DNA of 64,000 nt, taken from NCBI GenBank assembly GCA_951406725.2, contig OX597816.1, positions 68,448,001 through 68,512,000 of the forward strand, written 5' to 3'. Below, one piece after another: positions 24,451 through 48,306 of this stretch (the first letter of the stretch is position 1; each line of letters opens with the position of its first letter). A program made the position numbers and the translations under genes. This DNA comes from Octopus vulgaris (Eukaryota). Below the pieces are notes generated by a model. The model saw nothing but the letters and a program-made list of their open reading frames with translations, was not told the DNA's origin and searched no databases.

Positions 24451-25084
24451 ATTTCTTTACTACCCACAAAGGGCTAAACACAGAGAGGACAAACAAGGAC
24501 AGACAAACGGATTAAGTCGATTATATCGACCCCAGTACGTAACTGGTACTTATTTAATCGACCCCGAAAGGATGAAAGGCAAATTTCGACCTCGGCCGAA
24601 TTTGAACTCAGAACGTAGTGGCAGACGAAATACCGCTAGGAATTTCGCCCGGCGTGCTAACGATTCTTATGTCTTTATTGCCCACAAGGGGCTAAACAGA
24701 GAGGGGACAAACAAGGACAGACAAAGGGATTAAGTCGATTATATCGACCCCAGTGCGTAACTCGTACTTAATTTATCGACCTCGAAAGGATGAAAGGCAA
24801 AGTCGACATCGGAGGAATTTGTACTCAGAACGTAACAGCAGACGAAATACCTATTTCTTTACTACTCACAAGGGGTTAAACATAAAGAGGACAAACAAGG
24901 ACAGACAAACGGATTAAGTCGATTACATCGACCCCAGTGCATAACTGGTACTTATTTAATCGACCCCGATAGGATGAAAGGCAAAGTCGACCTCGGCGGA
25001 ATTTGAACTCAGAGCGTAACGGCAGACGAAATACGGCTACGCATTTCGCCCGGCGTGCTAACGTTTCTGCCAGCTCGCCGCCTT
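24451..25084 (-). mobile_element. SINE family A trimer flanked by one 11-bp TSD
   Basis: Three head-to-tail units. TTACATATATT occurs at 24439-24449 and 25083-25093. Confidence 0.9.

Positions 25085-38037: not shown

Positions 38038-38045
<8 letters not shown>
37681..38045 (-). mobile_element. Non-autonomous Helitron-like element (3' end clear)
   Basis: The minus strand ends CCCGGGCAACGCCGGG hairpin + CGATACTG + CTAG followed by T. The other end runs into (TA)n. Confidence 0.65.
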
Positions 38046-38072
<27 letters not shown>

Positions 38073-38295
38073 TCAATATAGGGTGGCAAAAAAAAATTTT
38101 GTAGAATTTTTTTGCCACCAGCGGCCTAGTGGGAAAAAATTAAATAGTCATAGACCATTTTTAAGTTCAACATCAACAATCAAGGAAAGGCCATAATAGG
38201 CCATTCACCCACTAGAAATAACAGCCAAAGCTTCAACCGCAAATAAAAATCAATTCCGTAAACCAGGAGAAAATTTAAAAAACATTTACCCTGTA

Positions 38296-38402
38296 ATTTC
38301 TTATACGATGCACCGTTTCATCTGCTGATTAATGGTAAACTAACCTGATTAAATTAAATAAAGCCAATCTTCCATAGGCCCTCAGATTCTTCAGTAAGAA
38401 AT
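38296..38402 (-). ncRNA. Type I hammerhead ribozyme (inverted-arm copy)
   Basis: Reverse complement of the array HHR, with one substitution in the stem II extension. Confidence 0.8.
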
Positions 38403-38816
38403 AGCCCAAGTCGGAACAGATATTTTCACGAGGCATTTCCGTTTTTTAAATTTTCTCCTGGTTTACGGAATTGATTTTTATTTGCGGTTGAAGCTTTGGC
38501 TGTTATTTCTAGTGGGTGAATGGCCTATTATGGCCGTTCCTTGATTGTTGATGTTGAACTTAAAAATGGTCTATGACTATTTAATTTTTTCCCACTAGGC
38601 CGCTGGTGGCAAAAAAAAATTCTACAAAATTTTTTTTTGCCACCCTATATTGATTAATTATGAATTTTCTGGTTAATTCCGTAATGGAATCGACGGCTTA
38701 TATTTATTTGCTGCCGATAAATTTGGCGCGAGTGCGACGATTTGAAAATTTTAGGTCAGATATAACCTTGGCAAGGTCGGAAATGCCTCGTGAAAATATC
38801 TGTTCCGACTTGGGCT

Positions 38817-38923
38817 ATTTCTTACTGAAGAATCTGAGGGCCTATGGAAGATTGGCTTGATTTAATTTAATCAGGTTAGTTTACCATTAATCAGCAGATG
38901 AAACGGTGCATCGTATAAGAAAT
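38817..38923 (+). ncRNA. Type I hammerhead ribozyme, unit 1
   Basis: Stem I ATTTCTTA/TAAGAAAT (8 bp); core CTGAAGA 38825-38831; stem II ATCTG/CAGAT closing a 68-nt hairpin; GAAA 38900; stem III ACGG-TGCA-TCGT. Predicted cleavage after GUA at 38915. Confidence 0.88.
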
Positions 38924-39308
38924 TACAGGGTAAATGTTTTTTAAATTTTCTCCTGGTTTACGGAATTGATTTTTATTTGCGGTTGAAGCTTTGGCTGTTA
39001 TTTCTAGTGGGTGAATGGCCTATTATGGCCGTTCCTTGATTGTTGATGTTGAACTTAAAAATGGTCTATGACTATTTAATTTTTTCCCACTAGGCCGCTG
39101 GTGGCAAAAAAATTCTACAAAATTTTTTTTGCCACCCTATATTGATTAATTATGAATTTTCTGGTTAATTCCGTAATGGAATCGACGGCTTATAGTTATT
39201 TGCTGCCGATAAATTTGGCGCGAGTGCGACGATTTGAACATTTTAGGTCAGATATAACCTTGGCAAGGTCGGAAATGCCTCGTGAAAATATCTGTTCCGA
39301 CTTGGGCT

Positions 39309-39415
39309 ATTTCTTACTGAAGAATCTGAGGGCCTATGGAAGATTGGCTTGATTTAATTTAATCAGGTTAGTTTACCATTAATCAGCAGATGAAACGGTG
39401 CATCGTATAAGAAAT
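39309..39415 (+). ncRNA. Type I hammerhead ribozyme, unit 2
   Basis: Same motif, with predicted cleavage after 39407. Confidence 0.88.
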
Positions 39416-39801
39416 TACAAGGTAAATGTTTTTTAAATTTTCTCCTGGTTTACGGAATTGATTTTTATTTGCGGTTGAAGCTTTGGCTGTTATTTCTAGT
39501 GGGTGAATGGCCTATTATGGCCTTTCCTTGATTGTTGATGTTGAACTTAAAAATGGTCTATGACTATTTAATTTTTTCCCACTAGGCCGCTGGTGGCAAA
39601 AAAATTCTACAAAATTTTTTTTTGCCACCCTATATTGATTAATTATGAATTTTCTGGTTAATTCCGTAATGGAATCGACGGCTTATATTTATTTGCTGCC
39701 GATAAATTTGGCGCGAGTGCGACGATTTGAAAATTTTAGGTCAGATATAACCTTGGCAAGGTCGGAAATGCCTCGTGAAAATATCTGTTCCGACTTGGGC
39801 T

Positions 39802-39908
39802 ATTTCTTACTGAAGAATCTGAGGGCCTATGGAAGATTGGCTTGATTTAATTTAATCAGGTTAGTTTACCATTAATCAGCAGATGAAACGGTGCATCGTA
39901 TAAGAAAT
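39802..39908 (+). ncRNA. Type I hammerhead ribozyme, unit 3
   Basis: Same motif, with predicted cleavage after 39900. Confidence 0.88.
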
Positions 39909-41019
39909 TACAGGGTAAATGTTTTTTAAATTTTCTCCTGGTTTACGGAATTGATTTTTATTTGCGGTTGAAGCTTTGGCTGTTATTTCTAGTGGGTGAA
40001 TGGCCTATTATGGCCGTTCCTTGATTGTTGATATATATATATATATATATATATATATCTTCTACTTTTTCAAACAGTTTTTCCAGATTCCAAAACATGG
40101 GCGCAGTATTGATTGTGCGGTTAAGATGCTCGTTTAGCAACCATGCGCTTTCGAGTTCATTCCCACTGTGCGGCACAATTATAAAAAGACCCTGGATTGA
40201 CCAATGTCTCGTAAGTGAATTTGGTAAATGGAAACTATGTACCTGTTTGGATGTTGTTGTATCTGTTTTTGTTCCACTCACCGTTTCAGAACCGGTGTTG
40301 GTTTGGTTACCTTACCGCGACATAGTGATTCTGAAAAAATACTAGACCTTAAAAACTAATACTGGGATCGATTTGCTCGACTTAAACCATTAAAGTTAGT
40401 ACCCCAGTACCACCACAATTCAGAAACTGAAACAATTAACACATAAACACACACATACACAAACACACACACATGTAGGTATGTATATGTATCTATGTGT
40501 GTATGTATGCATATACGCTTAAATACACATAATGATGCAGTATAAGATATCAGGCTGTACTACACATGTAATCCAGTTATATCGTGATTAGTGGTGGTGA
40601 TCGTTCTGAGTACTTCGACGATGTGGTTTCACTTGTTCGATCAACAGCATTATCTGCTCCTGAATTAACGTGTAAGAGACTGTTTGTAGACTTCTGCCAC
40701 CTTAACGCATTTCGTAAGCAGAATCATTACGACACATGGTGTGACAAGGCTGTACCATTTGAATTACGCGTTCTATTCACTCGGGGATATTCTCTACAGT
40801 TTCCGTGTATCCACTTTCATTCACAAGTTCATTTCGAGGTAAATGGCATTTGAAAAGCCTCATGGTTTTGAATACTGTCTCTTAAGCATTTATGAAATCG
40901 TACAGTAATGTATGAAAAGCAGTGAAAACTGTCCTGGGGGGACATTCTACACTGACACAGACAATTGAGCTCAACATTGCAAGAGAACTGAATGGCTATT
41001 AATAATACAGTACACATAA

Positions 41020-43151: not shown

Positions 43152-43959
43152 TATATATATATTTATATATATATATATATGCACATATATAAGTACATAT
43201 ATAAATATATATATATATACGTACATATACACACACATGCATACACACACACGCACGCACGCATGCATGCATACATACATGCATACATACATACATACGT
43301 ATATACATATATACATACACACATGAACTCAAACTTACATACATACGCATAGAAGCTATTTTGTTTGTTATGGCGGGACGGAGATTGACAATTGGTTCGC
43401 ACCTGTTAAACATTTAGCTGTATATAATTATATGCATGAATTCATTTACACGGGCATACATATTGTGCAGATGCACGCGTATGAATATTGTGATAGATTG
43501 TCACTGTAATCTCTTGCTTAAGCCCGTTCTTTCGGCTTTAAAACAACCCAAAACCCGAAGATTGCTGCTGACGTAGTAAGTCACGCGTCCATGTGCTTCA
43601 ATAATTATTCGCAGAAATGTAAGGTTACATTCTAGTTGGAGTGGAAATAATTCTCTGACAGATTGTGTTGTAATCTGATGAAAGAACGTGACGTCTAGCG
43701 AAAGGAAAAAGGGGTTTTGCTTCATTATTTTGCAACAGTAAACAACCTGCGTTTATGAAGCGTATAGAAATATAATAAATAACTATAACACACGCCGCGT
43801 AAAAAAGAAAAACGACTTCATTTCCCACGTGTAGGTACACATTCAGGAGAAAATTTTCACTCAATCTTTTCTTTACTACCATGTATTTGCATATGTTATA
43901 ATGCATTCCACTCACGTTCGTCCAGATTTAGGAGTTTTGCATTTAACTTTCATGTCAGT

Positions 43960-47608: not shown

Positions 47609-47659
47609 GCATTTACGATGGTTTCGATTTACTAGTTTTAGTAAATCTCTTCAGAATGC
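47609..47659 (-). ncRNA. Minimal type I hammerhead ribozyme
   Basis: Minus strand reads GCATT-CTGAAGA-GATTTACTA-AAAC-TAGTAAATC-GAAA-C-CATC-GT-A-AATGC: 5-bp stem I, 9-bp stem II, minimal stem III, GUA site. Confidence 0.82.
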
Positions 47660-48174: not shown

Positions 48175-48306
48175 ATTTATTTTATAGAAGGAGCTTCTAC
48201 CGGACTAGAACTGTTTCATTCAAAAGAAATCATCAGGAAGCTTCCTGATGATTTCTTTTGAATGAAACAGTTCTAGTCCTGTAGAAGCTCCTTCTATAAA
48301 ATAAAT
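48175..48306. repeat. Spacer-less 66-bp-arm palindrome (1 mismatch) between (TA)n tracts
   Basis: Centre AAG|CTT at 48240/48241. Confidence 0.95.
48239..48289 (+). ncRNA. Type I hammerhead ribozyme inside the palindrome (mirror copy on the minus strand)
   Basis: AGCTTC-CTGATGA-T-TTC-TTTT-GAA-T-GAAA-CAG-TTCTAGTC-CTG-TA-GAAGCT. Confidence 0.75.

What the first reader, a model, noticed from the sequence alone, without database searches (positions are those of the whole stretch)
38817..38923. Hammerhead with a 68-nt G-U-rich extended stem II
Seen: stem II (38832-38899) is a long hairpin made of ATCTG/CAGAT, ATGG/CCAT and a continuous 14-bp helix AGATTGGCTTGATT/AATCAGGTTAGTTT with five G-U pairs. 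G-U pairs work only on the + strand, which points to selection at RNA level and gives the functional strand. Stem III (ACGGTGCATCGT) is near-palindromic, compatible with the dimeric cleavage known for Penelope-associated hammerheads. Inference: motif searches with short stem II limits would miss this ribozyme, and the extension may be a protein or RT binding arm or a tertiary-contact module.
Basis: partly seen in the sequence, partly recalled or inferred. Interest (0 to 1): 0.75.

Follow-up and report, generated by a model that had tools for sequence, protein, structure and literature searches.

The report
Long-armed, pseudoknotted hammerhead in a retrozyme
This is a predicted self-cutting RNA (a hammerhead ribozyme) in each unit of a young, protein-free jumping repeat; its unusually long side arm is kept across related families and likely braces the ribozyme through a small RNA knot, and long-armed hammerheads that standard searches miss appear to be the commonest kind in this genome.

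Summary
The motif is real and matches the description: an intact type I hammerhead core, a 68-nt stem II with five G-U pairs and a self-complementary stem III. It sits in every unit of a 492-bp ORF-less repeat inserted as two back-to-back arms in (TA)n. The genome has about 2,900 intact copies with Penelope-type ends, so this is a non-LTR retrozyme family. The scan already noted this family on other DNA. Added here: (1) a 73%-identical sister subfamily keeps the arm with compensatory changes, and no short-armed version has spread. (2) The arm's internal loop pairs with bases just 5' of stem I, a 4-bp pseudoknot paired in 41 of 41 variants with repeated two-sided changes. (3) Two copies co-fold into the dimeric hammerhead. 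(4) Seven insertions begin at the predicted cut. (5) About 32,000 pattern matches have a 30-60-nt stem II against about 10,000 short ones, including an ORF-bearing Penelope-like family. Rfam misses this ribozyme. The G-U pairs need not be selected as such; some may be fixed A-to-I edits. Cleavage, RNA circles and the helper element are untested or not found. Verdict: new variant of a known kind.

The parts
38068..40032 (.). Whole two-armed insertion of the 492-bp ORF-less repeat (retrozyme)
   Evidence: no ORF of 120 aa or more inside; unit GC 36%
38068..38441 (-). Inverted, 5'-truncated arm; 3' end at the +235 site; carries the fourth hammerhead (core starts at 38394 on -; one G-to-T in the 14-bp helix)
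38441..40032 (+). Tandem arm, 3.2 units of 492 bp, 98% matches; 3' end at the +132 site
38041..38069 (.). (TA)n target microsatellite, left side
40031..40058 (.). (AT)n target microsatellite, right side
38813..38816 (+). Pseudoknot strand A (GGCU), just 5' of stem I
   Evidence: predicted from covariation
38818..38824 (+). Stem I, 5' strand (pairs with 38916-38922)
38825..38831 (+). Catalytic core CUGAAGA
   Evidence: sequence
38832..38899 (+). 68-nt stem II: basal helix, internal loop, 4-bp helix, 14-bp helix with five G-U pairs, invariant U/A-rich loop
38839..38842 (+). Pseudoknot strand B (GGCC) in the 5' side of the stem II internal loop
   Evidence: predicted from covariation
38900..38915 (+). 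GAA core, self-complementary 12-nt stem III (38903-38914) and cut-site nucleotide A38915 (cut predicted after it)
38916..38922 (+). Stem I, 3' strand; first bases of the predicted cleaved unit RNA
39013..39034 (+). Hairpin about 13 nt before the first fixed 3' end (+132); candidate RT-positioning element
   Evidence: role inferred
39100..39136 (+). Hairpin about 14 nt before the second fixed 3' end (+235); candidate RT-positioning element
   Evidence: role inferred
39304..39414 (+). Second hammerhead copy
39797..39907 (+). Third hammerhead copy

Best explanation
The motif is a type I hammerhead, predicted to self-cleave as a dimer, in each 492-bp unit of a non-coding repeat that is likely copied by a Penelope-like retrotransposon, and its long stem II likely serves as a scaffold whose internal loop forms a 4-bp pseudoknot with the strand leading into stem I. 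SHOWN in sequence: the motif, the repeat architecture, the (TA)n targets, two fixed 3' ends, conservation and covariation of the arm and of the pseudoknot pairs. INFERRED: (a) a multimeric + strand transcript is made. (b) A lone hammerhead mostly misfolds because stem III is marginal; two neighbouring copies pair their palindromic stem III into a 12-bp duplex and open both cores. (c) The pseudoknot packs stem II against stem I in place of the usual loop 1-loop 2 contact and so speeds cleavage; the 18 distal pairs close and rigidify the internal loop that presents the pseudoknot strand. (d) Cleavage gives unit RNAs that may be circularised. (e) A Penelope-type RT/GIY-YIG enzyme nicks (TA)n, primes at two internal sites (+132, +235) behind two hairpins and writes two back-to-back arms. 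The long arm was probably inherited from the terminal repeat of a parental Penelope-like element rather than invented by this parasite.
For: Core and stems intact; 2,883 family matches against 1 control. 22 variants: 96.5% of cells paired against 91.6 shuffled (0 of 500 as high) and 31-44% in slid controls; 4 of 5 basal stem II pairs and 3 of 7 stem I pairs change on both sides. Sister unit is 73% identical overall, 82% in the apical helix and loop. With the family's stem III, 20-49-nt spacers give 4 matches (1 control) against 2,883 for 50-80 nt. Pseudoknot: all four pairs are standard in 41 of 41 variants (12 types); the two variable positions are paired 24 of 24 against 21.0 shuffled, p about 0.003, with C-G, U-A and U-G types. 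On a tree built without either strand these pairs change on both sides in at least three separate places, and a neighbouring A.G becomes G-C. The spacing shifts in step on both sides (10/9 nt against 7-9/7). Dimer: stem III probability 0.08-0.17 in monomers; the co-fold minimum of two copies is the double hammerhead (-78.3 against 2 x -32.0); the palindrome centre survives a two-sided change (G-C to A-U in 3 of 22). Penelope footprint: 25 of 32 and 16 of 19 alignment 3' ends fall at two sites in the two subfamilies, nearly all followed by (TA)n, like the two internal RT start sites of PMC11167929. Cut footprint: 7 loci (9 arms) begin at the predicted cut, all shorter than one unit, and in two loci both arms do; the control 11 nt upstream gives 3 arms, none of first-pass length. 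An ORF-bearing Penelope-like family carries a 54-nt stem II hammerhead 530-620 nt after its stop in 28 of 40 loci.
Against: No cleavage, probing or circular-RNA data. In the 18 distal pairs only 1 changes on both sides against the commonest pair; 11 vary on one side only, and variants are related, so shuffle values are not true probabilities. The pseudoknot is short (about -6 kcal/mol as a bare duplex) and competes with weak nested pairs (strand B is 7-67% unpaired in the nested model). The pseudoknot does not explain why 18 further pairs and an invariant loop are kept. Position 10.1-11.1 is A-U here and often a mismatch in relatives, not the usual G-C. The cut-site enrichment is modest on plain counts (7 against 3 loci, p 0.17; first-pass only 7 against 0, p 0.015, a split chosen after seeing the data), rests on one control position, and the control pattern was looser than intended at one letter. 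No autonomous element with DNA homology to the unit was found. I saw no such pseudoknot by eye in the other long-arm families.
Confidence: 0.72

Rival explanations
1. The hammerhead and retrozyme reading holds, but the arm is mainly a protein-binding or RNA-handling element (Penelope RT, a ligase, ADAR or an AU-rich-element protein), and the pseudoknot is secondary.
For: The apical helix and loop are more conserved than the unit average (82% against 73%), and the loop region with two AUUUA words is invariant in 22 variants. No shortened subfamily spread. The anole Penelope hammerhead needs protein to cleave (PMC11167929). Long arms recur in many unrelated families.
Against: The RT start sites lie 130-235 nt after the cut behind other hairpins. 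Arms of other families share no evident sequence and vary from 30 to 68 nt. The young Neptune-like elements examined carry short or variant hammerheads.
Confidence: 0.3
2. The pseudoknot is real but inhibitory: it holds the unit-length or circular RNA uncut and lets cleavage occur only in multimers.
For: A stem I-stem II contact that attenuates cleavage is reported for a plant satellite hammerhead (title and one sentence in PMC6155905; the paper itself is not held). Circles would benefit from not re-cutting.
Against: The marginal stem III already gates monomers. Tested stem I-II pseudoknots raise the rate 20- to over 100-fold (PMC3088659). The basal helix is 5 bp, near the canonical helix II length.
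Confidence: 0.12
3. The arm is a tolerated neutral insertion kept only because all copies descend from a few recent masters; the ribozyme may be nearly inactive.
For: Many copies are 98-100% identical. Stem II length is known to be tolerant, and cleavage was dispensable for Penelope insertion in vitro (PMC11167929). Most arms run past the cut site.
Against: Compensatory changes between and within subfamilies 27% apart; strand-specific folding; arms that begin at the cut.
Confidence: 0.08

Closest known systems
Metazoan non-LTR retrozymes (Cervera and de la Pena 2020, PMC7229834, parts 1-3 of 6 read; Li, Clavereau and Pollet 2026, 10.64898/2026.07.22.740005, abstract and sections 4, 11 part 1 and 16 read)
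   Same: ORF-less, AT-rich tandem repeat with one type I hammerhead per unit; thousands of copies; Penelope-like elements in the same genome; dimer-dependent cleavage as in the axolotl
   Different: Unit of 492/474 bp (170-400 nt in the first paper, 51-972 in the second); 68-nt stem II instead of about 4 bp plus a loop; a Watson-Crick pseudoknot from an internal loop instead of the canonical loop 1-loop 2 contact; 12-nt palindromic stem III; molluscs other than mussel not treated in the parts read
[quoted passage not shown] 2021, PMC8557442, passages)
   Same: Type I, palindromic stem III, placed shortly before the 3' end; (TA)n targets, 5' truncation, inverted and tandem arms, a 'tail' between two ends
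   Different: Reported helix II is at most 6-8 bp with no tertiary contact; Craig's core search used 7-17-nt spacers; here 68 nt, and the tail is about 103 nt instead of 30-40
Pseudoknotted hammerheads (Perreault et al. 2011, PMC3088659, passages and section 10 read; includes the human C10orf118 ribozyme)
   Same: A base-paired stem I-stem II contact, found in about 40% of their set and in all three types, and needed for fast cleavage
   Different: In the passages read the partners are terminal loops or tails of compact ribozymes; here the strand comes from an internal loop of a long arm, in a dimer-type ribozyme of an animal retroelement
Poseidon element of Anolis in vitro (Frangieh et al. 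2024, PMC11167929, parts 1-2 of 4 read)
   Same: AT-rich target cut on both strands; two internal RT start sites downstream of the hammerhead, matching two genomic ends
   Different: An autonomous element; its hammerhead needed protein, and no RNA-seq reads ended at the cut, whereas some genomic arms here begin at the cut

Membership tests
Hammerhead ribozyme, type I | Core CUGANGA ... GAAA with NUH cut triplet | tested here: met
   CUGAAGA, GAAA, GUA; GUA or GUC in 21 of 22 variants
Hammerhead ribozyme, type I | Three helices round the core, helix I open | tested here: met
   pair 10.1-11.1 is A-U or variable rather than G-C
Hammerhead ribozyme, type I | Match to an Rfam hammerhead model | tested here: not met
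   none among the 14 matches at E up to 10 or the 150 of 256 rows listed; attributed to the long arm
Hammerhead ribozyme, type I | Site-specific self-cleavage | not testable with these tools
   indirect only: 7 loci begin at the predicted cut
Non-LTR retrozyme | Non-coding, low-GC tandem repeat of a few hundred bp with one type I hammerhead per unit | tested here: met
   492 bp, 36% GC, no ORF of 120 aa or more, one hammerhead per unit
Non-LTR retrozyme | Dispersed multi-copy family | tested here: met
   2,883 intact motifs; top 40 DNA hits on 8 contigs
Non-LTR retrozyme | Canonical loop 1-loop 2 tertiary nucleotides (typical; also absent in mussel) | tested here: not met
   no terminal loop 2 near the core; a pseudoknot instead
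Non-LTR retrozyme | Expressed as linear and circular unit RNA | tested here: inconclusive
   only contigs of runs guessed to be RNA; a circle cannot be told from a tandem
Non-LTR retrozyme | No LTR, PBS or PPT | not tested
   no PBS or PPT search was run; no LTR-type flanks seen
Penelope-mobilised element | Microsatellite target, 5' truncation, inverted plus tandem arms, two 3' ends | tested here: met
Penelope-mobilised element | Homology to the pLTR of an autonomous element | tested here: inconclusive
   none found in the loci examined; only two protein-led searches sampled the many families
Pseudoknotted hammerhead | [quoted passage not shown] | tested here: met
Pseudoknotted hammerhead | Pseudoknot needed for fast cleavage | not testable with these tools
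   needs mutant kinetics

The most novel reading that the evidence does not exclude
This genome holds an overlooked radiation of some 30,000 long-armed type I hammerheads, about three quarters of its detectable hammerheads, in which stem II has become a modular platform. In this family the platform supplies a pseudoknot from an internal loop that makes a fast but dimer-gated ribozyme. The arm evolves at the RNA level through A-to-I edits that reverse transcription writes back into DNA, and cut-site-anchored insertions record cleavage in vivo.
Probability: 0.3. Interest if true: 0.72.

Novelty: new variant of a known kind. Interest (0 to 1): 0.5.

Why it matters
Penelope-associated hammerheads are described as minimal, slow and without tertiary contacts. 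This one is the opposite in build, and covariation names the four base pairs to test. If long arms are the majority form here, descriptor- and Rfam-based surveys have undercounted animal hammerheads, and some Penelope clades scored as lacking them deserve a second look with long spacers. Arms that begin at the cut site give a genomic handle on whether these ribozymes cleave during transposition, which is open in the papers read.

Tried and rejected
Rfam gave no hammerhead match. The search for a parent element failed: no DNA match between the unit and 30 GIY-YIG loci, apart from a 57-nt fragment of the repeat itself and one chance 17-nt match, or the 40 Nematis-like loci. Penelope ORF pieces near family copies lie beyond the 3' ends and were read as neighbours. 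Model R1, built on an imperfect consensus structure, found only the four window copies in 60 sources. No RNA holder is listed on record; contigs cannot show ends or circles. A Helitron reading of the terminal hairpin was considered and dropped because ends, truncation and inversion fit Penelope-type insertion. A GGCC/GGCC kissing contact between two arms was dropped because the sister loops (AACC, GACC) are not palindromic. 5' ends in the unselected loci are scattered: 6 of 78 lie within 12 nt after the cut, about 2 expected, a weak hint only. Pfam did not recognise RT or endonuclease in the 833- and 741-aa ORFs, so their assignment rests on recalled motifs. Paper searches for hammerhead+penelope+octopus, hammerhead ribozyme+cephalopod, 'extended stem II', hammerhead+Nematis+pLTR and pseudoknot+type I+internal loop listed no description of this architecture. 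Two relevant papers were not held. No supplement was read, and those of PMC7229834, PMC4209133 and PMC3088659 may show long helix II examples.

Full report
OBSERVATION. The motif is as described: stem I 38818-24/38916-22, CUGAAGA, a 68-nt stem II, GAAA, a 12-nt stem III and a GUA triplet. The 14-bp helix has five G-U pairs. Stem II folds far better than shuffles (z -4.8, 0 of 500) and far better on + than on - (-24.5 against -9.0 kcal/mol). Rfam lists no hammerhead for the region at E up to 10, and a 10-40-nt spacer pattern misses it.

CONTEXT. The motif is one of four copies in the window. Three lie in a 492-bp tandem array (38441-40032, 3.2 units, 98% matches) and one in an inverted, truncated arm (38068-38441). 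The whole sits between (TA)n tracts and has no ORF of 120 aa or more. The genome is a 2.8-Gb animal assembly; 'cephalopod-like' is my recall of its repeats plus earlier scan notes, not a result. A DNA search had 2,526 candidates, and the 40 scored were 99-100% identical. A family pattern gives 2,883 matches against 1 control. Arms are truncated at scattered 5' points but end at two fixed places, about +132 and +235 from the cut: 25 of 32 alignment ends in this subfamily and 16 of 19 in a sister subfamily. Each end lies about 14 nt behind a hairpin kept in both subfamilies. This matches the Penelope footprint (PMC8557442, passages) and the two internal RT starts shown in vitro (PMC11167929). 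Retrozymes as Penelope derivatives is already proposed (10.64898/2026.07.22.740005). Earlier notes of this scan describe the same family; they are not independent support.

IS THE ARM CONSERVED? Loose ends led to a 474-bp sister subfamily (273 matches to one motif; 73% identical) that keeps a 64-66-nt arm. On 22 hand-picked distinct variants (of 44 found; single-copy mutants of the young arrays and junction copies left out), 96.5% of cells pair against 91.6 in shuffles and 31-44% in slid controls. Four of 5 basal pairs change on both sides; MAFFT gapped two of these columns in the 9 sister rows. The 18 distal pairs are weaker evidence: 4 never vary, 11 vary on one side and keep pairing, 1 changes on both sides, 2 are sometimes broken. 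With the family's stem III, 20-49-nt spacers give only 4 matches, three of them damaged family copies, so no short-armed version has spread.

WHAT THE ARM LIKELY DOES. An invariant CC in the 5' side of the internal loop (38841-42) is complementary to an invariant GG just 5' of stem I (38813-14). In 41 variants (of 82; junction copies, near-duplicates and one unrelated match left out) the four pairs GG-Y-Y / R-R-CC are standard in every row. At the two variable positions 24 of 24 type-cells pair against 21.0 shuffled (p about 0.003, relatedness not corrected). On a tree built without both strands, the first variable pair is C-G in one clade and U-A in the other, with a return to C-G via a U-G relative; the second is U-G, U-A or C-G; and an adjacent A.G becomes G-C in one group. 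The distances of both strands from the core shift together between subfamilies. The loop sits 5 bp from the core, where loop 2 of a canonical hammerhead lies, so I infer a pseudoknot that replaces the loop-loop contact. Such contacts raise rates 20- to over 100-fold in tested cases (PMC3088659). The pseudoknot is short, RNAfold cannot model it and offers weak competing pairs, and it does not account for the length of the distal helix or the invariant loop.

DIMER. In monomers stem III has probability 0.08-0.17, and the minimum fold pairs it with the core. Two copies co-fold into the double hammerhead (-78.3 against 2 x -32.0 kcal/mol). The palindrome survives two-sided changes at its centre (3 of 22) and at the next pair (1 of 22). 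One variant has a central mismatch (duplex -7.1).

DOES IT CUT? Not shown. A pattern for copies whose sequence starts at the predicted cut gave 11 matches: two internal deletions and 7 loci with 9 arms, all 128-242 nt long; in two loci both arms start at +1. A control 11 nt upstream gave 6 matches: 3 mutant copies of one array and 3 arms, all longer than a unit. Plain counts are not significant (p 0.17); first-pass arms give p 0.015 after the fact. The idea came from note e1-8664355.

G-U PAIRS. They fix the strand, but the commonest sister variant has one G-U in the same helix. Among 30 insertions, changes shared by all copies of a locus or by several loci are A-to-G 19 times against T-to-C 8 times (p 0.003 given base content; polarity is against the majority, not an ancestor), while single-copy changes are 2 against 6. 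Four of the 7 locus-private A-to-G changes lie in stem II. Two runs guessed to be RNA show A-to-G at 38864 and 38889, absent from two deep runs, and at 38893, nearly absent from them; another shows 42 A-to-G and 29 T-to-C places. This fits A-to-I editing, partly written back into DNA, but run types are guesses, individuals differ, and editing of fold-back arms would look similar.

HOW COMMON. A generic core pattern with an 8-nt stem III gives 32,385 matches for 30-60-nt spacers (control 518) and 10,365 for 4-29 nt (control 294), in many unrelated families. The pattern does not demand stems I and II: of the first 30 loci, 21 had stem II z below -1 and 14 had 4 or more contiguous stem I pairs, and some loci match both patterns, so the counts are approximate. 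One 54-nt family traces to an ORF-bearing element (833-aa frame; RT and GIY-YIG-like motifs of Nematis type by my recall; Pfam silent). There, 28 of 40 loci (two fetched twice) carry the motif 530-620 nt after the stop, and two more carry it with a 6-nt stem III. Young Neptune-like elements (RT and GIY-YIG by Pfam) have short or variant cores. So long arms occur in autonomous elements too.

VERDICT. A genuine retrozyme hammerhead of a known class with an architecture I did not find in print (searches; supplements unread; two key papers not held). New variant of a known kind; interest 0.5.

Noticed in passing
window 47622-47654 (-): A separate short type I hammerhead-like motif (22-nt stem II with 9 pairs, 5-bp stem I), probably a Penelope 3'-end fragment; a similar motif occurs elsewhere in the genome.
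   Followed up: partly
window 48214-48267 and 43675-43708: An inverted pair of hammerhead core words, and another core-word pair, found by the loose pattern.
   Followed up: no
L061-L064 (e.g. L063:2842-5184 +): Young Neptune-like element with an intact 781-aa RT/GIY-YIG frame in many identical copies, a second open frame of about 330-380 aa upstream, and a variant hammerhead core (UUGAUAA) near its 3' end.
   Followed up: partly
L245:2241-4739 (-), L246:2512-4734 (+): Very large Penelope-like family (16,368 candidates) with a long Asn-rich insert between RT and endonuclease; Pfam recognises neither domain.
   Followed up: partly
L300/L301, L307/L308: Fold-back insertions in which both arms start at the first base after the predicted cut and stop at the two fixed ends.
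   Followed up: partly
window 38860-38871: The apical loop region is invariant across both subfamilies and contains two AUUUA words.
   Followed up: no
window 38824 and 38899: Abundant variants next to the core in deep runs: A-to-G at position 1.1 (about a third of depth in one run) and U-to-C at 11.1.
   Followed up: no
window 24668-25034: Two tandem copies of a 184-bp SINE-like repeat.
   Followed up: no
L033:341-397: A 57-nt piece of this repeat's +132 end alone between (AT)n tracts: an extremely truncated insertion.
   Followed up: partly
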